Shown: piece by piece, positions 4,748-37,316 of the stretch
Numbering within the stretch: position 1 is the first letter of the stretch
How the letters are laid out: every line of letters starts with the position of its first letter
From: a virus
Lineage: Duplodnaviria; Heunggongvirae; Uroviricota; Caudoviricetes
Virus record (IMG/VR): IMGVR_UViG_2537561977_000024
Length of the DNA: 37,316 bases
Strand: one strand, 5' to 3'
Notes under the pieces: model-generated
Seen by the model: only the letters and a program-made list of their open reading frames with translations
Databases searched by the model: none
Told to the model about the DNA's origin: nothing
Translations under genes and position numbers: made by a program

Positions 4748-7700
4748 GCGTCGTATCCCCCCTGATCGCTGTAGTTACTCCTGGCTTTTGCCTTCAGCCT
4801 GCGTTCACGTTCATCAAGCTGGCGGGCCACCTCCCGCGCAATATCCTGCGCACTTTGTCCTGGCTGTGTCTGGATGATGATCTGCGTCGGTGCTTCAATC
4901 CGGTAAATGGGCGGCACAGTAGCTGCACGACTCACCATCGCTTCACCGCCTTTTGCGGGAAGCGCCAAAGGATGCAACGGTGGAAGCTCTGCTGGCGCGG
5001 CAGCAACACCCATCATTCCGGCGACAACGGCAGCCAGTGCAGCTGTATTTCTCCGGCTGGTCACGTTTGCCGGGCCGTTAACAATTTCCGGCCCGTTTTC
5101 ACCGACGATGCCAAACTGCCCGCGCGGGATATAGCCGCCGCTGTCATACATCCCCGCAAAGCCATATCCCCATGACGGAAAATCACCCGATGGCATCATC
5201 ACTTTACCGTCTGCATTCACCGTCGCAGGTTGCTGACGCGTCACGCTTTCCGGCAGTTTCGCCTTTGCAGCCTCTTTACTGACAATGCCGAGTTTCTCCA
5301 GCAACCAGGAAACGCCGGATTTCAGGGAGTCCAGCGGATGCATGACCATATTCAGCCCTTCTGCCAGTGCCTCCCCGAATCGTCGCCCCATTGCCGCTGC
5401 GCTCTGCAGTTCGGCAGAGGTCGACTTAACGGGCGTCAGCAGATCAGTAAACCAGCCCCACAGCGCCTGCACTTTGTCGCCAATCCACTGGAACACGGGC
5501 TTAAGCGGTTCGAACGCTGCACTGATGGGACCTGCCGCCGCTTTGAATCCTTCCACCACGCCACCGAGAAATGCGGTGATGGGTTGCCAGTATTTCCAGA
5601 CAACCAGCGCCACGCCCGCCAGTGCAGTAACCACAAGACCTATCGGACTGAGCAGAGCACCTAACAGACCAGATATGGCATACAGGGCAACGCGCAGCAT
5701 CGCCAGTGGACCAGATGCCAGTACTCGCAGCACCGTGCCTGCGGCGGCCAGTCCACCGCGCAGTACCGCCAGAGGATTCATAAACATCACAGCAACAGCA
5801 CGTAAACCGGATAATCCAGACCGCAAAAGTGCAACCGGCGCACCTGCTACAGTTTTCAGGACATTTTCCGTCAGTGATGCCGTGCGGCGCAAAGACGACA
5901 ACGGCGCAGTAAGTAAACCTGCGGCGTTGCCCGATGAAGCAAGCCCGCGTCGCAGCAGTGCCAGTGGCGCGCCAGCCAGCCAGGACAACGCGCTGCTGGT
6001 TCGAGTTACTGCTGCCGTAACGGAAGATAACGTTTTGATACCCAACACAGAGAATCCCAGACGGATCACTGCCAGCGGCCCCAGCACTGCAGCCAGCGCC
6101 ACCGCTAAGGTGCCGAGGCCCACGGTAACGGCAGCCACCACAGCGGCTACTTTCATCAGTGTGCCCGTCAGTTCCGGGTTAGCTTCCACCCAACGACGCG
6201 ACGCTCCCGTGACGCTTTTCACCATGTACAGAATATCCATCAGCGGCTGGCGCAGCGTTTCGCCCAGGCTGCTGAAGGTGTTCTGCGCTCCGGTTTTGAC
6301 CAGCAACCACTGCGCAGAAAGTGAGTCCTTGTTAATGTCGGATTCTTTCTGCATGGAGCCGAGCGCATCATTGCCCGCTGTCAGTTTTAACTGGCGCTGC
6401 AGTTCCGGCAGGTTGTTTGCCAGTTTCGCCGCGTCATCGCCAAACTCTTTACCAAACAACATGGTCATGGCAGACAGACGTTTATCCTGCGGCAGTGCGT
6501 TCACCTTCTCCAGTACGCGCTGGATAGTTCCCATCGCATCCTTCGTCATCTGCTTTTCAATCACTTCAGGGTTGAGTTTCAGCAGATTCATTCCTTCAAA
6601 GAAACTCTTGCTTTGCATGGTGGCAATAGACAATTCACGCACCATCGCGTTGGCTGCACTGGCTGCAACCTCCGGCGCAGCACCCAGTGTCAGGAAGGTG
6701 GAACCCAGCGCCGCCGCTTTACGATAATCCAGACGATCAGCCACACCGCCCAGGCGTTGCATGACATCAATGATGTCTGCCCCTTTCGACATGGCGTTAT
6801 CATCCAGATAGTTCAGCGCATCACCGAGCTGTTCAATATTGCGGGTAGGGATTTTGTAGAGCTGGGCGATTTTGCCCAGACTTTCTGACAGTTCATCCGC
6901 TGGCAGCTCAAAGGCTGTTGCCGCCTTTGCTGCCGTGCTGGCGAAGGCCAGCAGATCACGTTTCTGGTCTTCCCAGCTGTCGTCAGGGTTTGCGACGTTC
7001 ATGCGCGCACCACCTTCAACCAGTGCAGCGAAATCCACCGCACCGTTTTCCATCGGCAACTGTTCGCTGGCAGCCTTGATGGCATCCTGCATTTCATAAA
7101 AACGTGCAGTGCGGTTGCCATTATCGTCACGCAGACCATTGACCTGCTTTGCCACACCTTTCATGGCATCTTCCATGCTGGTATAGCTTTTTACTGCCGC
7201 CATCACTGGTGCGCCCATTGCCAGCCCTGCAGCCGTGGTGGTGGCTCCGGCACCTGCAATCCGATCCCTTACTTCAAGACGCCTGGCGTAAGCCCCTCGG
7301 GCGGCGTGCATTTTTCGCTGTTGCTCCCCGACACGTCGTAACCTCGCTTCCTGCTCAGAAAGCTGCCTGTTATAACGCATCGTTTCACGGGTAATGCGGG
7401 CCGTCGCACTGGCACCATCATTAGCTGAAATACCAGCACGATAAAGTTCTGCACGCACAAGCGCCGTCTGCTGCTGCAGCTTTTTCTGGCGTTCTTCCAG
7501 GCGCTGAACAGCCAGCCGTTGACGGCCCAGAGCAACAACCTGACGTTGCGAAGGCGGCCCCATCGCTCCCAGTTCCTGACTGAGCAAATTTGCACGCTGG
7601 CGGGCATAGCTCAGCCTGTCGCCTAATTTCTGATTTTCTGCCTGCAGCTTTCGGAAGCTGTCCAGACTGCTCCCGGCCTGATCAAGCTGCTTTATTGCAT

Positions 7701-32242: not shown

Positions 32243-33096
32243 GCACGTACTCCGTACACGGCAGAACTATCCACGCCACGCGAATAATCAAATCCCACCC
32301 AGCAGCGCGGCCCGGAAACAGCAATGATTTCTGTTGCTGATTTACCCTCGCCAGCTGCCACACCGATGCTGCGTTTTGCCTTGATGTAGTGGTGAGTAAA
32401 ATTGCGATACAGCGAACGGATCAGGGATGTGTCACTGTTAGAAACAATGACCGGATGTCCTTCTGATGACCGATGTTCAAGAACAGATGCCAGGTGATAC
32501 TGGTCATCTTCAGTGAAGCCGTCAGTGTGATAGCCGGAAAACGTACCGTCATACGGCGGATCGCAATACACCACATCCCCCGCCTTCAACATCGCCAGCG
32601 TTTCATCAAAGCTGGCGCAGATAAACGTTGCTCGCTGGGCCTTTTCTGCAAATGCGCGAATTTCTTTTTCAGGGAAATACGGATTTTTATAATTACCGTA
32701 GGGAATGTTGAAATGCCCGCTCTTGTTATAGCGACATAAACCACGGTAACCGTGACGATTGAGATACAGGAAATATACCGCTTTCATGAAATCAGTAATT
32801 TCAGTGGAGTAATTAAACTCCTGCCTTATGTTGTAATAAGCCACCTCCCTGTTTGCGATCTCAAATAAAACTCTGGCGCGAGATATAAACGATTCACAAT
32901 CAGCGGCAACCTTTTTATAGAGGTTGATTAAATCAGGATTAATATCCGCAACCAGATAGCTGGGGTAATCCGTCTCCATCATCACAGCACAGGAACCCGC
33001 GAAAGGTTCAACCAGTCGCGGGCCAGCAGGAAGGTGTTTTTTCAGTTCGGACATAATGGCGGTTTTATTTCCCGCCCATTTCAGGATAGTGCTCAT
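32239..33096 (-). CDS. dam: Dam-like N6-adenine DNA methyltransferase
   Basis: LKWAGNK N-terminus, FAGS, DPPY motifs align with E. coli Dam; start set at [11 protein letters not shown]. Confidence 0.85.
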
Positions 33097-33320
33097 ACAG
33101 CACCTCCGTTGTAATGTTTGCCTTTCAGCTCTGCGATTTCCTGGCAGGTAATGCAAAGCTGCACTCCCGGAATGGCGCGGCGTCGTGCTGGCGGAATTGG
33201 CGCTTCACATTCAATACAAAGCACGCGAGACACGCCCGGTGTTTTGGCACGGGCAGCACGAATATGGCGCTGGCGTTCTTCTTCAACGCGCTGCTGTACG
33301 AGATCCATTGCATCAGCCAT
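33093..33320 (-). CDS. TraR/DksA-family C4 zinc-finger protein
   Basis: CIECEAPIP...CITCQ four-Cys pattern in 75-aa ORF. Confidence 0.7.
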   Translation of the reverse strand: MADAMDLVQQRVEEERQRHIRAARAKTPGVSRVLCIECEAPIPPARRRAIPGVQLCITCQEIAELKGKHYNGGAV

Positions 33321-34383: not shown

Positions 34384-34902
34384 TCACAGCAAACCGAATG
34401 AAGCACCAAGACCAGTCATGGTATCAACTGCACTCGCCATCGCAGGATTAGCCTGTAAACGGGCCTGCAATGAAACAGCAGCCAGCGCCATCAGTCGTGT
34501 AACAGAGTTAATGCTGCTGATCGCATCACGACGGCCTGCACTGGTTTTTACATCGCCAGAAACCGCACCTGCCGCGACACGTCCTATCTCTGCAGTTGCA
34601 CTCATGACGTAATGCGGCAGTTTCTCTTTTGCTACCTCATTAATCGGTACACATGGCAGGCAGTGAATCTGTGCCAGAAAACCATCTACCAGCGTTGAAT
34701 CTTCAGTCAGATCGGTAAGCAACCAAATTTCTGGTGCGGTTAATAAATGAGGTTGAGCTGGGTTCAGTTTGTTCCGCAGAATCTGCACATTCATGCCTGC
34801 ACGTTCTGCCAGTTGCACCAGATTGTGGCGCAGTGCGAATGCACGACAGGCTTCATCAAAATGTGGATGTTTGGAAACTTGGTAATCAAACATGGTTTTC
34901 AA
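34384..34902 (-). CDS. cII: 186 CII-like lysogeny establishment activator
   Basis: 172-aa ORF with [24 protein letters not shown], second gene of rightward early operon. Confidence 0.6.
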
Positions 34903-34957
34903 CTCCGAACTTATCGCAAAATCGAACTCAGCGTCTTATTGCGAAAATAGACGTCTA

Positions 34958-35161
34958 TTAAGCAGACAAAGCATCAACAGTCAGAACAGCCAGGTTAATC
35001 ATTACCTTTTCACGTTTTTTGTCTTTACGAAGACGATGACGAGGTAGTCGGCCATCAGCCAACATGTCGTTAATCGTATCAATAGAAAGGCCAGTCAGTT
35101 CGCTATAACGTTCGATTGTGACATGTGGTGTATTCAGAGTAATTGAAATGTTAGGTGTCAT
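34958..35161 (-). CDS. apl: Apl/Cox-type excisionase-repressor
   Basis: 67-aa HTH protein, first gene divergent from cI. Confidence 0.6.
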
Positions 35162-35306
35162 AAGGCAACATTCCTTCTAGATATGGCTTGTGGCGAGCCG
35201 TTGTTTGTCGTGATTAGTAGTGAAGGCTCCAAAAGAACACTTCCGGTTCAACTTTAAGATCGCTTTTGGAATCTATCAACGAATTTTGGATTTCTTTGGA
35301 GGACTT

Positions 35307-35876
35307 GTGGATTTCAATAGCGGCGGTAAGAAAGCCATAGAACGTTTAGTTGAAGCATATGGGTTCGGTACCCGTCAGGCTCTCTGTGATCATTTAGGTG
35401 TTTCTAAGAGCACCATGGCAACGCGCTATATGCGTGATATTTTTCCAGCAGATTGGGTAATCCAGTGCGCCCTTGAAACGGGCACCTCGCTTAATTGGCT
35501 AACAACAGGGCATGGTTCAAAGCAAGCATCAGCAAATACAAATACTATGGAAGTTGCTAAATATGTATTATCTGATGGGGCCTTATGTGAAGACGGTTTT
35601 TATATTTTCGATAGGGAATTTCTACCGTCGGCATTCAAGAATATTTTTGCAATCACAGATAATAATTCTGAATTTATTTGTGATAAGGAATTTGATGATA
35701 TACGTGATGGTAAATGGGTAATAAGTATTGATGGCGAAATAACGATCCGTGACATTACTCGTTTACCCGGTGGAAGAATCTTCGTCGAGGGTGGAAACAG
35801 AGCCTTCGAATGCAAGATAGAAGACATTGAAATAATTGGTAAAATTATAAGTTTAACAGTCAAGTATGTTAAATAG
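35307..35876 (+). CDS. cI: 186 CI-like immunity repressor
   Basis: [10 protein letters not shown]...[15 protein letters not shown] matches 186 CI pattern; start ambiguous (ORF opens at GTG 35220; GTG 35307 with GGAGGA SD gives 186-like length). Confidence 0.7.
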
Positions 35877-35892
35877 TACCGGGAGGAAAACT

Positions 35893-36084
35893 ATGCTTGG
35901 TAAGGTATTTTTTGTGGTTTTGTCATGTTCTTTGTTATTAAACCCACTAACTACCTATGCTAGAAATTATCCCTGTTCAGGGAAAAAGGGAGGTGTTTCT
36001 CACTGTACCTCAGATGGCAAATTTGTTTGCAATGATGGAACTATTAGTAAATCCAAAAAAATCTGTACTAAAAACTCACGATAA
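35893..36084 (+). CDS. small secreted cysteine-rich protein (putative lysogenic conversion gene)
   Basis: GGGAGG SD, 23-aa signal peptide [23 protein letters not shown], ~40-aa mature part with 4 Cys and many Lys. Confidence 0.5.
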
Positions 36085-36272
36085 CTTTTGCTTTTATATC
36101 TGCGCCTAAAATAAAAATGAGCCGCAGGTTAACCGCAAAAATTACATGCTCACATAGCAAAAAGAATAGCCAACTTAATTATGGCTTCAGTGAGATGTAT
36201 GGTCGTAGGATTTCATACATTGACACTGGTTATACATACAGTGAAAATGCTCTCTACTGGAGGGCATTTTTT

Positions 36273-37316
36273 ATGGCAGTACGAAAACTAACCACAGGGA
36301 AATGGCTTTGCGAATGTTACCCCGCCGGACGCAGCGGGCGTCGCGTGCGTAAACAGTTCGCTACCAAAGGCGAAGCATTAGCTTTTGAGCGTCACACGAT
36401 GGAGGAGGCAGAAGCTAAGCCTTGGCTTGGTGAATCGGTAGACCGTCGAACTCTACAGGATATCGTTGAACTCTGGTTCAAACTGCACGGCAAATCCCTG
36501 ACCGCTGGCGAGCATGTTTACGACAAGTTGATACTGATGGTCGATGCTCTCGGAAATCCCCTCGCCACCGATCTAACATCCAAAATGTTCGCGCACTATC
36601 GCGATAAGCGCCTGACGGGTGAAATCTACTTCAGCGAAAAATGGAAGAAAGGAGCCAGCCCGGTAACTATCAATCTGGAGCAAAGCTATCTGAGTGGGGT
36701 CTTTAGCGAGTTAGCCCGACTCGGTGAATGGACAGCACCAAATCCACTGGAGAACATGCGTAAATTCACCATTGCCGAAAAAGAAATGGCCTGGCTGACA
36801 CATGAACAAATCACAGAGCTTCTGTTCGACTGTCAACGCCAAAGCCCCCTGCTCGCTCTTGTCGTCAAAATCTGCTTGAGCACCGGAGCACGTTGGCGCG
36901 AAGCTGTGAACCTGACACGTTCTCAGGTCACGAAATACCGAATCACATTTGTCAGAACTAAGGGCAAAAAAAACCGCAGCATTCCGATCAGCAAAGAGCT
37001 GTATGAGGAAATTGTTGCCCTAGACGGCTTCAAATTATTTACTGACTGCTACTTCCAGTTTTTAGCCGTGATGGATAGAACCTCGATCGTACTACCACGC
37101 GGGCAACTTACCCACGTTCTACGCCATACGTTCGCAGCACATTTTATGATGTCCGGCGGGAACATTCTTGCTTTGCAAAAAATCCTGGGCCACCACGATA
37201 TAAAAATGACTATGCGCTATGCACATCTTGCCCCTGATCACCTTGAAACAGCACTGCGTTTCAATCCATTAGCCACACTTTCCACTAAAGCAACGAACCT
37301 TGAAGCAAACAGCTAA
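36273..37316 (+). CDS. int: P2/186-family tyrosine integrase
   Basis: ARW, HxLRH and RY catalytic motifs; start set at MAVRKL with GGAGGG SD. Confidence 0.9.
   Translation: MAVRKLTTGKWLCECYPAGRSGRRVRKQFATKGEALAFERHTMEEAEAKPWLGESVDRRTLQDIVELWFKLHGKSLTAGEHVYDKLILMVDALGNPLATDLTSKMFAHYRDKRLTGEIYFSEKWKKGASPVTINLEQSYLSGVFSELARLGEWTAPNPLENMRKFTIAEKEMAWLTHEQITELLFDCQRQSPLLALVVKICLSTGARWREAVNLTRSQVTKYRITFVRTKGKKNRSIPISKELYEEIVALDGFKLFTDCYFQFLAVMDRTSIVLPRGQLTHVLRHTFAAHFMMSGGNILALQKILGHHDIKMTMRYAHLAPDHLETALRFNPLATLSTKATNLEANS

What the first reader, a model, noticed from the sequence alone, without database searches (positions are those of the whole stretch)
35893..36084. Small secreted cysteine-rich peptide encoded between cI and int
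Between the repressor and integrase genes, on the lysogenically transcribed strand, sits a 63-codon ORF with a strong SD, a typical signal peptide and a ~40-aa mature part with four cysteines and many lysines. Genes in this position are expressed in the lysogen, so this is a candidate lysogenic-conversion factor (periplasmic or secreted peptide).
Basis: partly seen in the sequence, partly recalled or inferred. Interest (0 to 1): 0.45.

Follow-up and report, generated by a model that had tools for sequence, protein, structure and literature searches.

The report
Prophage copy of periplasmic YdcA mini-protein
The small ORF between the repressor and integrase genes is a real, strongly conserved gene for a catalogued but uncharacterised exported mini-protein (YdcA family) that P2/186-like prophages repeatedly carry just behind their repressor gene; what it does for the lysogen is still unknown.

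Summary
Window 35893-36084 (+) encodes a 63-aa protein. It has a GGAGG Shine-Dalgarno 6 nt upstream, a 23-aa Sec-type signal peptide, and a 40-aa mature part with four cysteines (pI 9.7, net charge about +7).

It is not an orphan. It belongs to the YdcA family: NCBIfam NF007463 above its curated cut-off, Pfam PF27300, PHROG 6000. RefSeq already annotates the same cI-YdcA-int arrangement, and 628 of 5426 complete E. coli genomes carry this allele. Purifying selection is extreme: synonymous sites are saturated while the core is almost invariant.

The position is conserved. A YdcA gene follows the repressor in 186-like prophages of Escherichia, Enterobacter, Yersinia, Hafnia and Haemophilus (HP2, unannotated). 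It also follows an unrelated S24-type repressor in P2-like prophages, mostly betaproteobacterial. Most family members, however, are chromosomal, including the near-universal E. coli ydcA.

The nearest solved relative is one lobe of Legionella Dis2, a disulfide-pinned protein under the outer membrane. That homology is remote.

The best reading is a periplasmic accessory protein cotranscribed with cI. Whether it acts in phage exclusion or stress tolerance is untested. The gene is already known, its function is unknown, and interest is modest.

The parts
35881..35887 (+). Shine-Dalgarno sequence GGGAGGA, 6 nt from the ATG
   Evidence: Read directly from the sequence. The GGGAGG core is intact in 78 of the 80 IMG/VR copies; two copies read GGGAGT. 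It is also kept in BL21.
35893..36084 (+). YdcA-family gene: 63 codons plus stop
   Evidence: NCBIfam NF007463 at 115.8 bits against a cut-off of 93. PHROG 6000 at E 1.9e-34. The 98%-identical cluster representative carries PF27300. The identical CDS is annotated in RefSeq.
35893..35961 (+). Signal-peptide coding part (residues 1-23, predicted cleavage TYA|RN)
   Evidence: n/h/c regions are visible in the sequence. This segment is hypervariable between homologues, while the Ala at -1 is kept. K-12 YdcA is described as having a signal sequence and predicted to be periplasmic (bioRxiv 10.1101/2024.02.12.579971).
35962..36081 (+). Mature 40-aa peptide with a core [32 protein letters not shown] and four Cys (C-x9-C-x7-C-x11-C)
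   Evidence: Alignments A1, A2 and A5. Selection analysis. AlphaFold model at pLDDT 80 showing a beta-hairpin.
35307..35876 (+). cI repressor (186 type), first gene of the presumed lysogenic operon
   Evidence: Pfam PF07022 and PF16452. RefSeq coordinates transferred from the 99.7% identical locus.
35162..35306 (.). [quoted passage not shown]
   Evidence: Gene geometry. One promoter-like site on the - strand at 35279-35251. pL itself was not located. The architecture is inferred from the P2/186 literature (PMC7498355).
36085..36272 (+). AT-rich non-coding spacer between the YdcA gene and int, with no + strand terminator found
   Evidence: A 2-nt indel in BL21 rules out coding. The terminator scan found sites on the - strand only. 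GC is 36.7%.
36220..36248 (+). Promoter-like site TTGACA-17-GAAAAT just upstream of int
   Evidence: Consensus scan, 10 of 12 matches. It lies in the stretch that travels with int in heteroimmune phages. Function is untested.
36273..37316 (+). Tyrosine integrase; the window ends at its stop codon
   Evidence: Pfam PF24624 and PF00589. RefSeq coordinates.
34958..35161 (-). Apl/Cox-like excisionase-regulator, first gene of the divergent lytic operon
   Evidence: PHROG 575 at E 2e-28.
34384..34893 (-). CII-type lysogeny activator
   Evidence: Pfam PF06892 at E 3.4e-42. RefSeq coordinates.

Best explanation
The ORF is a prophage-borne member of the YdcA family of small exported proteins. The proposed mechanism has five steps.

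1. **Transcription (inferred).** The gene is transcribed with cI, and probably int, from the lysogenic promoter of a 186-like P2-family prophage, so it is made in the lysogen.
2. **Translation (shown by sequence).** It is translated from its own strong Shine-Dalgarno sequence.
3. **Export (inferred).** It is exported by Sec and cleaved after Ala23.
4. **Folding (inferred from the model and from Dis2).** The 40-aa, strongly cationic mature part folds in the periplasm into a beta-hairpin mini-domain held by two disulfides.
5. **Action (inferred).** Its surface is almost invariant from alpha- to gammaproteobacteria, so it most likely binds a conserved envelope component at the periplasmic face of the outer membrane. 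Its remote relative Dis2 sits there and contacts the outer-membrane-complex proteins DotC, DotD and DotK.

The benefit to the lysogen is not established. I put phage or DNA-entry exclusion and envelope or acid stress tolerance at roughly equal odds, about 0.35 each.
For: **Family identity.** NF007463 scores above its curated cut-off. PHROG 6000 matches. Homologues carry PF27300, named YdcA. RefSeq annotates 'phage repressor protein CI | YdcA family protein | phage integrase'.

**Functional constraint.** Synonymous sites are saturated while the core is nearly invariant. All 80 IMG/VR copies are intact. Signal peptides are hypervariable while the mature part is invariant.

**Operon geometry.** The gap after cI is 16 nt. 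The scan found no + strand promoter between the cI start and the ORF and no + strand terminator from the cI stop to int. In HP2 the homologue starts on the last base of the cI stop codon. The phage records annotate PL lysogenic operons for HP2 and K139.

**Recurrent linkage to the repressor.**
- 186-type CI: E. coli of two immunity types, Enterobacter, Yersinia, Hafnia and Pasteurellaceae.
- HTH_3 plus Peptidase_S24 repressor in P2-like prophages of Comamonas, Iodobacter, Deefgea, Aquabacterium and Stutzerimonas.

**Cargo-slot nature of the cI-int interval.**
- Fels-2: empty.
- Other phages: a 558-aa ATPase, a 349-aa hypothetical protein, a KAP NTPase, or K139 orf2 plus glo.
- A cI-int defence hotspot is reported for K139-like phages (PMC9122126).
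- K139 Glo, in the same slot, is described as a soluble periplasmic exclusion protein (PMC3952083).

**Fold and location.**
- The AlphaFold model has pLDDT 80.
- Dis2 is the top PDB hit by profile and by Foldseek.
- hhalign of mature YdcA against the Dis2 family gives 79.9% probability and E 1.4e-5.
- Dis2 lies near the outer membrane and has five disulfides (PMC8486379).

**Stress link.** Deleting chromosomal ydcA in E. coli W causes 3-hydroxypropionate sensitivity, and acid induction via YdcI has been reported (PMC7642389).
Against: - No transcript, protein or phenotype data for the prophage copy were available.
- The lysogenic promoter was not located in the window.
- Most family members are not in prophages: about 60 of the 80 species-level loci. 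E. coli almost always has its own ydcA. The family's role is therefore probably general physiology rather than phage-specific.
- Known exclusion proteins tend to evolve fast, from general knowledge, whereas this core is nearly frozen.
- Of 143 sequenced phages with a 186-type CI, only 3 records (HP2 twice, S2 once) carry the gene. It is dispensable for the phage.
- There is no PADLOC hit.
Confidence: 0.7

Rival explanations
1. Superinfection or DNA-entry exclusion factor. The periplasmic peptide blocks a step between adsorption and DNA entry of incoming phages, or of conjugative or transforming DNA. It would be a positional analogue of K139 Glo.
For: - It occupies the same slot and strand as glo in K139, which is annotated 'periplasmic protein; involved in phage exclusion' (PMC3952083).
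- The other cargo in this slot looks defence-like: a KAP NTPase and large ATPases. The cI-int hotspot is described in PMC9122126.
- The mature peptide is highly cationic.
- Its relative Dis2 is part of a DNA- and protein-translocating type IV secretion machine.
- Phage-borne copies occur in naturally competent genera: Haemophilus, Moraxella and Acinetobacter.
Against: - There is no homology to Glo and no PADLOC model matches.
- The core is nearly invariant across classes of Proteobacteria and is mostly chromosomal. Both are unusual for exclusion proteins.
- No exclusion data exist for any YdcA protein in the searched literature.
Confidence: 0.3
2. Host-fitness factor. The prophage supplies a constitutively expressed extra copy of a periplasmic protein that helps the envelope tolerate acid or organic-acid stress, as reported for chromosomal ydcA.
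For: - In E. coli W, the ydcA deletion grows poorly with 300 mM 3-hydroxypropionate, and ydcA is reported to be acid-induced under YdcI (PMC7642389).
- The family is mostly chromosomal and widely conserved.
- The phage allele differs from K-12 YdcA mainly in the signal peptide and a few core residues.
Against: - The evidence for the chromosomal gene is a single growth phenotype that was suppressed by a yieP deletion.
- This does not explain why the gene sits behind repressors of two unrelated families in P2-like phages.
- Lysogens already have the chromosomal copy.
Confidence: 0.3
3. Periplasmic metal- or redox-active peptide. The four Cys and the conserved His would bind a metal or act as a thiol buffer rather than form structural disulfides.
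For: - The four Cys are invariant and His37 is nearly invariant.
- Chromosomal neighbours include cybB (superoxide oxidase) in K-12, DUF2946/PepSY genes in Citrobacter and Atlantibacter, and DsbC in one lineage.
Against: - In the related Dis2, all ten Cys form five disulfides with strong density (PMC8486379).
- From general knowledge, exported Cys in the oxidising periplasm are normally disulfide-bonded.
- His37 is replaced by Ser, Ala or Arg in some members.
- The neighbours are not conserved across lineages.
Confidence: 0.07
4. Secreted antimicrobial peptide (bacteriocin- or defensin-like) used by the lysogen against competitors.
For: The product is small, cationic (+7) and has four cysteines. 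One YdcA-family gene was flagged among genes associated with antimicrobial-positive Pseudomonas protegens strains (PMC13541209).
Against: - There is no adjacent immunity, processing or export gene.
- A paralogue is a near-universal core gene of E. coli.
- Only a Sec signal is present, so the protein should stop in the periplasm.
- The Pseudomonas association is correlative only.
Confidence: 0.03
5. Lipoprotein anchored through Cys12 (sequence VLSC) rather than a soluble periplasmic protein.
For: A Cys sits at position 12 after a short hydrophobic stretch. One Yersinia homologue is named 'Lipoprotein' by a source.
Against: - V-L-S-C does not fit the lipobox, because Leu at -2 is atypical.
- The Cys is absent from the signal peptides of Enterobacter, Yersinia, Hafnia, HP2 and K-12 homologues, whereas the Ala at the predicted signal-peptidase I site is conserved.
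Confidence: 0.03

Closest known systems
E. coli K-12 YdcA (b1419, 57 aa; NCBIfam NF007462, Pfam PF27300)
   Same: Same family and architecture: a signal peptide followed by a core of about 35 aa with the same four Cys and the motifs PCSG.KGG..HC and [14 protein letters not shown]. It is predicted to be periplasmic and its function is unknown.
   Different: - It is a chromosomal gene lying between rydC and hokB, not in a prophage.
- It belongs to a different NCBIfam equivalog; the window protein scores 68.5 bits against NF007462, below its cut-off of 118.
- Identity is about 51% overall, with 9 non-synonymous differences across the 32 core codons.
- It is reported as acid- and YdcI-regulated, whereas the prophage copy sits in the cI operon.
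Unannotated 60-aa ORF of Haemophilus phages HP2 and S2 (NC_003315 complement 2489-2671 region; locus L001 2920-3102)
   Same: A true homologue (NF007463 at 79 bits, E 1e-22) in the same place and on the same strand: directly after a 186-type cI and before int, in the annotated pL operon.
   Different: It starts on the last base of the cI stop codon, suggesting translational coupling. It is followed by a second exported protein, orf1(S) of 254 aa, before int. It is not annotated in the phage records.
Glo of Vibrio phage K139 (137 aa)
   Same: Encoded between cI and int on the PL lysogenic operon of a P2-family phage. It has a signal peptide and is described as a soluble periplasmic protein involved in phage exclusion.
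   Different: There is no sequence relationship beyond the signal peptide (hhalign probability 1.6%). It is three times larger and has 2 Cys rather than a 4-Cys core. Its function has experimental backing, according to the record and the cited literature; I could not read the primary paper.
Legionella pneumophila Dis2 (Lpg0823), outer-membrane-cap component of the Dot/Icm type IVB secretion system (PDB 7MUC/7MUD)
   Same: It is the closest solved structure.
- It is the top hit by profile search and by Foldseek (38-44% identity over 27-37 columns).
- hhalign of mature YdcA against the Dis2 family gives 79.9% probability and E 1.4e-5.
- The shared motif is C-x3-GG-x3-C-x3-4-G-x2-VCN(D/N)G-x2-S.
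- It is exported and disulfide-pinned, and sits just under the outer membrane.
   Different: Dis2 is a tandem of two such lobes with ten Cys. It belongs to a secretion machine and is regarded as Legionellales-specific. Only a few Dis2 homologues reach the Pfam YdcA model. The window holds no type IV secretion genes. The homology is remote and not proven.

Membership tests
YdcA family (NCBIfam NF007463 / PRK10040.1-2; Pfam PF27300) | Score above the curated whole-protein cut-off of the family model | tested here: met
   NF007463 scores 115.8 bits against a cut-off of 93, E 5e-34, covering residues 5-63 of the protein and positions 1-58 of the 58-position profile.
YdcA family (NCBIfam NF007463 / PRK10040.1-2; Pfam PF27300) | Pfam PF27300 domain hit | tested here: inconclusive
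   The local Pfam copy lacks PF27300 and returned nothing relevant. The 98%-identical cluster representative P0001 and nearly all homologues carry a precomputed PF27300.1 hit, named YdcA, so membership is indirect but very likely.
YdcA family (NCBIfam NF007463 / PRK10040.1-2; Pfam PF27300) | N-terminal signal peptide followed by a short core with four invariant Cys (C-x9-C-x6/7-C-x11-C) and the motifs PCSGKKGGV and F(V/I)C(N/K)DG(T/S)xS | tested here: met
   Alignments A1, A2 and A5. P27, C28, S29, K32, G33, G34, C38, F44, C46, D48, G49, S52, S54, K55 and C58 are invariant in A1.
PHROG 6000 (phage protein family of unknown function) | Significant full-length match to the family profile | tested here: met
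   E 1.9e-34, residues 3-59 of the protein against positions 1-56 of the 56-position profile.
Periplasmic exclusion proteins of the P2-family lysogenic operon (K139 Glo type) | Encoded between cI and int on the lysogenic strand | tested here: met
   for the window; for K139.
Periplasmic exclusion proteins of the P2-family lysogenic operon (K139 Glo type) | Sequence homology to Glo | tested here: not met
   hhalign probability 1.6%, limited to the signal peptide.
Periplasmic exclusion proteins of the P2-family lysogenic operon (K139 Glo type) | Confers exclusion of superinfecting phage | not testable with these tools
   Needs plating assays on isogenic lysogens.
Dis2 (Lpg0823) component of the Dot/Icm T4BSS | Two tandem lobes with ten conserved Cys (five disulfides) | tested here: not met
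   The window protein has one domain and four Cys in its mature part. The Dis2 family alignment shows two repeats and ten invariant Cys (PMC8486379).
Dis2 (Lpg0823) component of the Dot/Icm T4BSS | Detectable homology of the domain to a Dis2 lobe | tested here: inconclusive
   [not shown]
Dis2 (Lpg0823) component of the Dot/Icm T4BSS | Genomic or physical association with a type IVB secretion system | tested here: not met
   The neighbours are phage regulatory and integration genes. No such association appeared in any of the surveyed loci.
Bacterial lipoproteins | Lipobox [LVI][ASTVI][GAS]C at the end of the signal peptide, conserved among homologues | tested here: not met
   The VLSC at residues 9-12 has Leu at -2. 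The Cys is absent from most homologues' signal peptides.
Known anti-phage defence systems (PADLOC-DB) | Match to any defence-protein model | tested here: not met
   No family at E <= 1.

The most novel reading that the evidence does not exclude
The YdcA domain would be the free-standing, single-lobe prototype of the Legionella Dis2 fold. It would be a disulfide-pinned, cationic clamp that docks on outer-membrane lipoprotein or trans-envelope assemblies from the periplasmic side.

P2-like prophages of gamma- and betaproteobacteria would place it right behind their repressor genes, of two unrelated repressor families. Lysogens would then constantly make it, blocking DNA entry by rival phages, conjugative elements or transformation. 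That would be a new, very widespread class of periplasmic exclusion factor.
Probability: 0.15. Interest if true: 0.65.

Novelty: already known. Interest (0 to 1): 0.3.

Why it matters
The gene itself is catalogued. The exact protein occurs on more than 1000 contigs, and RefSeq already names it a YdcA family protein in the same cI-YdcA-int arrangement. The finding therefore adds no new kind of element.

Its value is as a handle on an unsolved small-protein family. YdcA has no known function despite being nearly universal in E. coli and almost frozen in sequence across Proteobacteria.

Three observations could guide experiments on both YdcA and Dis2, whose functions are unknown:
- **Prophage carriage.** About 12% of complete E. 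coli genomes carry a second, prophage-borne copy in a presumed lysogenic operon.
- **Repressor linkage.** P2-like phages with unrelated repressors keep the gene in the same relative place.
- **Dis2 resemblance.** It resembles one lobe of Dis2, which has been regarded as Legionellales-specific.

BL21 and other E. coli B strains carry the prophage copy, so existing transcriptome and proteome data could settle whether it is expressed.

Tried and rejected
- **Local Pfam scan of the peptide.** Only a noise hit appeared (GULLO2-like_3rd, E 0.075), because PF27300 is absent from that copy.
- **PADLOC.** No hit.
- **Rfam on 34800-36500.** Only two sub-threshold CRISPR-repeat chance hits.
- **Megablast of the region against deposited phages.** Only the int part matched, so no sequenced enterobacterial phage in that collection carries this cI-YdcA module.
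- **PDB hits to a plant proteinase inhibitor and an LDL-receptor repeat** (E 0.15-0.6). I rejected these as cysteine-pattern noise.
- **Glo homology.** Rejected.
- **The 72-aa start at 35866 and the in-frame int extension from 36117.** Rejected, because the upstream ATG is not conserved and the spacer carries a 2-nt indel.
- **The first Dis2 E-value (9.6e-5).** It was inflated by the signal peptide. I re-tested with mature-only profiles.
- **The UniRef name 'Conjugal transfer protein'** for this cluster. I found no conjugation context for it. It may be a mislabel from the nearby TraR/DksA-type gene, so I did not use it as evidence.
- **Nesper et al. 1999 on K139 Glo.** The primary paper is not held, so the Glo function rests on the GenBank record and on a secondary citation.
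- **The lysogenic promoter pL.** I could not place it with the consensus scan.
Full report
**What is in the sequence**

Window 35893-36084 on the + strand is an ATG-to-TAA ORF of 63 codons. It encodes [63 protein letters not shown]. GGGAGGA lies at 35881-35887, 6 nt before the ATG.

- A 186-type CI repressor (PF07022 at 3e-31, PF16452 at 2e-26) ends at 35876.
- A tyrosine integrase (PF24624, PF00589) starts at 36273.
- On the other strand lie an Apl/Cox-like gene (PHROG 575) and a CII gene (PF06892).

A 99.7% identical E. coli chromosome segment has exactly these CDS calls in RefSeq: cI at 35307-35876, the 192-nt CDS, and int at 36273-37316. The longer 72-codon reading from 35866 is not conserved. 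The in-frame int extension from 36117 is broken by a 2-nt indel in the BL21 copy. So the 63-aa protein and a 188-nt non-coding spacer are the right anatomy.

The signal peptide has one Lys, a 12-residue hydrophobic core and TYA before the predicted cleavage site. The mature 40-mer has 4 Cys, 7 Lys, 2 Arg and 2 Asp, with pI 9.7 and net charge +6.8.

**It is a real gene under very strong constraint**

In the 32-codon core (PCS...IC):
- The window and BL21 copies differ at 8 synonymous and 0 non-synonymous positions.
- The window and a heteroimmune E. coli prophage differ at 21 synonymous and 2 non-synonymous positions (pS about 1, pN 0.03).
- Against the Enterobacter copy the counts are 19.5 and 1.5.

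All 80 IMG/VR copies retrieved are intact. They comprise 9 DNA alleles but only 3 protein variants. Both amino-acid changes lie outside the Cys-bounded core: T20A in the signal peptide and R24K at the first mature residue.

Across homologues the signal peptides are unalignable in detail, while the mature part is almost invariant.

The ORF, the C-terminal half of cI and the spacer are AT-rich (34%, 34% and 37% GC) against 52% for the window and 49% for int.

**What it is**

The protein matches NCBIfam NF007463 (PRK10040.1-2) at 115.8 bits, above the curated cut-off of 93. It matches PHROG 6000 at E 2e-34. The local Pfam copy lacks the relevant model, but the homologues carry a precomputed PF27300 hit, which another tool names YdcA.

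The exact sequence is in the protein collection, in a 90% cluster of 355 member sequences seen on more than 1000 contigs of E. coli, Salmonella Typhi and Klebsiella. Some are named 'YdcA family protein'. In RefSeq the arrangement 'phage repressor protein CI | YdcA family protein | phage integrase' is already annotated.

The founding member, E. coli K-12 YdcA (b1419, 57 aa), lies between rydC and hokB, outside any prophage, and matches the sister model NF007462.

A profile search of 1.84 billion representative proteins finds 445 clusters at E <= 1e-3. Most are 55-130 aa and some are tandem.

**How common it is**

This allele, at 80% coverage or more, is in 628 of 5426 complete E. coli genomes. 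The chromosomal ydcA (about 75% nucleotide identity over the core only) is in 5412 of 5426. The cI-YdcA-int segment is at least 80% covered in 591 genomes. Lysogens therefore carry two paralogues.

IMG/VR holds at least 535 stretches encoding relatives. Homologues also occur on Acinetobacter and Rhizobium plasmids.

**Position is conserved**

A YdcA gene sits directly after a 186-type cI, on the same strand and before int, in all of the following:
- a second E. coli immunity type, where a KAP NTPase gene follows it;
- Enterobacter hormaechei;
- Yersinia;
- Hafnia, with an extra 143-aa ORF before it;
- Pasteurellaceae;
- Haemophilus phages HP2 and S2.

In HP2 and S2 the 60-aa ORF is not annotated, starts on the last base of the cI stop codon, and lies in the annotated pL operon.

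In a scan of one genome per species, 121 genomes from alpha-, beta- and gammaproteobacteria encode relatives. I examined the best 80:
- About 10 lie next to a 186-type CI.
- Nine more lie 68-1231 nt downstream of, and on the same strand as, an unrelated HTH_3 plus Peptidase_S24 repressor. These are in P2-like prophages (Ogr/Delta, gpD, tape measure) of Comamonas, Iodobacter, Deefgea, Aquabacterium, a Hydrogenophilales MAG and Stutzerimonas.
- The remaining roughly 60 are not in such contexts. Examples are Citrobacter and Atlantibacter near rplS, and alphaproteobacteria next to a secreted SNase-like nuclease.

In other phages the gene sits in typical accessory-gene spots. In Moraxella Mcat17 it lies between the tail chaperones and the tape measure. 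In an Acinetobacter phage it follows an AntA-like gene.

**The slot is a cargo site**

Between cI and int:
- Fels-2 has nothing.
- vB_EcoM-813R9 has a 558-aa ATPase.
- Klebsiella phage 4LV2017 has a 349-aa hypothetical protein.
- K139 has orf2 and glo.

Of 143 phage records with a 186-type CI, only the three HP2/S2 records have YdcA. The gene is therefore accessory, not part of the switch.

Rousset et al. describe a defence hotspot between cI and int in K139-like Vibrio phages (PMC9122126). A 2026 survey places 8% of P2 defence systems between integrase and primase (PMC13586616). K139 Glo, in this slot, is annotated as a periplasmic protein involved in phage exclusion and is cited as a soluble periplasmic exclusion protein. 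It is not homologous to YdcA.

**Expression inference**

The consensus scan found no + strand promoter between the cI start and the ORF, and no + strand terminator between the cI stop and int. It did report two overlapping, weak 5-bp terminator-like sites on the + strand at 35421-35436, inside the cI coding sequence; I treat these as chance matches. The gap after cI is 16 nt. [quoted passage not shown]

Co-transcription with cI in the lysogen is therefore likely but not shown. I could not place pL itself.

**Structure and nearest solved relative**

AlphaFold models give pLDDT 75 for the full protein and 80 for the mature part, with a short beta-hairpin.

A profile of the family against all PDB sequences finds one notable hit. 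It is Legionella pneumophila Dis2 (Lpg0823; deposited as 'neurogenic locus notch protein homolog'), with two repeats matched (E 9.6e-5). Foldseek against the PDB ranks the same chain first (probability 0.82, 38-44% identity, E 0.29).

Part of the first score came from the signal peptide, so I repeated the test with mature-only sequences:
- The HMM still ranks Dis2 first, but at E 0.15.
- A profile-profile comparison against a 24-member Dis2 family alignment gives 79.9% probability and E 1.4e-5 over 27 columns at 44% identity.
- A few Dis2 homologues carry a precomputed PF27300 hit.
- The NCBIfam YdcA models touch the second Dis2 repeat at E 3e-4.

I regard the homology as probable but remote.

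**What is known about YdcA**

The searched literature offers little:
- It is a 57-aa protein with a signal sequence, predicted to be periplasmic, of unknown function.
- Its deletion in E. coli W impairs growth with 300 mM 3-hydroxypropionate. It is said to be acid-induced under YdcI (PMC7642389).
- A YdcA-family gene was flagged in a Pseudomonas comparative study.
- No paper found links YdcA to prophages or to Dis2.

**Verdict**

- **Observation:** confirmed.
partly supported. This is an accessory gene for an exported protein in a presumed lysogenic operon, but it belongs to a catalogued, mostly chromosomal family, and no conversion phenotype is known.
- **Mechanism:** the most likely route is Sec export, two disulfides, a cationic periplasmic mini-domain, and action on a conserved envelope partner near the outer membrane.
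- **Benefit to the lysogen:** exclusion of incoming DNA and stress tolerance are about equally plausible.
- **Novelty:** already known as a gene.

The repressor linkage and the Dis2 resemblance are modest new leads.

Noticed in passing
window 36195-36272, including the promoter-like site at 36220-36248: Similarity to heteroimmune P2-like phages (Klebsiella 4LV2017, KP12, vB_EcoM-813R9) and to other E. coli prophages begins 60-80 nt upstream of the int start codon. That stretch contains a TTGACA-17-GAAAAT promoter-like site. The int module may therefore travel with its own upstream regulatory region rather than depending only on read-through from cI.
   Followed up: partly
window 35500-36270: An AT-rich island (33-37% GC against 52% for the window) covers the C-terminal domain of cI, the YdcA gene and the spacer. 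This suggests the repressor's C-terminal half and YdcA were acquired, or evolve, as one block.
   Followed up: partly
[not shown]
   Followed up: yes
L007-L010 4198-5529; L026 4085-5761; L013/L014 about 5281-6844; L015 5651-7207: The cI-int interval and the stretch just beyond int in related prophages carry defence-looking cargo: a KAP NTPase, a 558-aa 'chromosome segregation ATPase', and an AAA_15/AAA_21/SMC_N-type ATPase. I did not test these for defence-system membership.
   Followed up: no
L151, L156, L172, L186 (Comamonas, Aquabacterium, Stutzerimonas) and P0056-P0062: Longer forms of 100-130 aa add a second Cys-rich C-terminal module, CxC...C-TGPRGG-x-YC...G-x-K-SY, after a low-complexity linker. 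They match NCBIfam NF007464 below its cut-off. The nature of the second module was not examined.
   Followed up: no
L125, L126, L128, L176, L177, L183 (Brucella/Ochrobactrum, Microvirga, Ancylobacter): In six alphaproteobacterial genomes the YdcA gene lies next to, and on the same strand as, a staphylococcal-nuclease-like (PF00565) protein. In the one representative inspected (L176) a hydrophobic stretch precedes the SNase domain, suggesting a signal peptide. This is a possible hint of a DNA-related periplasmic role, or a coincidence.
   Followed up: partly
window 35872-35844, - strand: A near-consensus promoter-like site (TTAACA-17-TATAAT, 11 of 12) points antisense into the 3' end of cI. In DNA this AT-rich it may be chance.
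   Followed up: no
window end (37316) and L002 5258-5743: The window stops exactly at the int stop codon, as do many IMG/VR contigs of this prophage. In complete genomes a further ORF of 110-161 aa lies between int and the host gene rcdA. The attachment site and possibly more cargo therefore lie outside the window.
   Followed up: partly
L110 (3-kb contig of a 'Bacillota bacterium' MAG): This contig is identical in its YdcA protein sequence to the window and also encodes close homologues of the window's CI and Int. It is almost certainly enterobacterial contamination of that MAG.
   Followed up: no
protein cluster of the window's peptide: UniRef names several members 'Conjugal transfer protein'. 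No conjugation context was found. The label may have been carried over from the TraR/DksA-type zinc-finger gene of the same prophage (window 33093-33320).
   Followed up: partly
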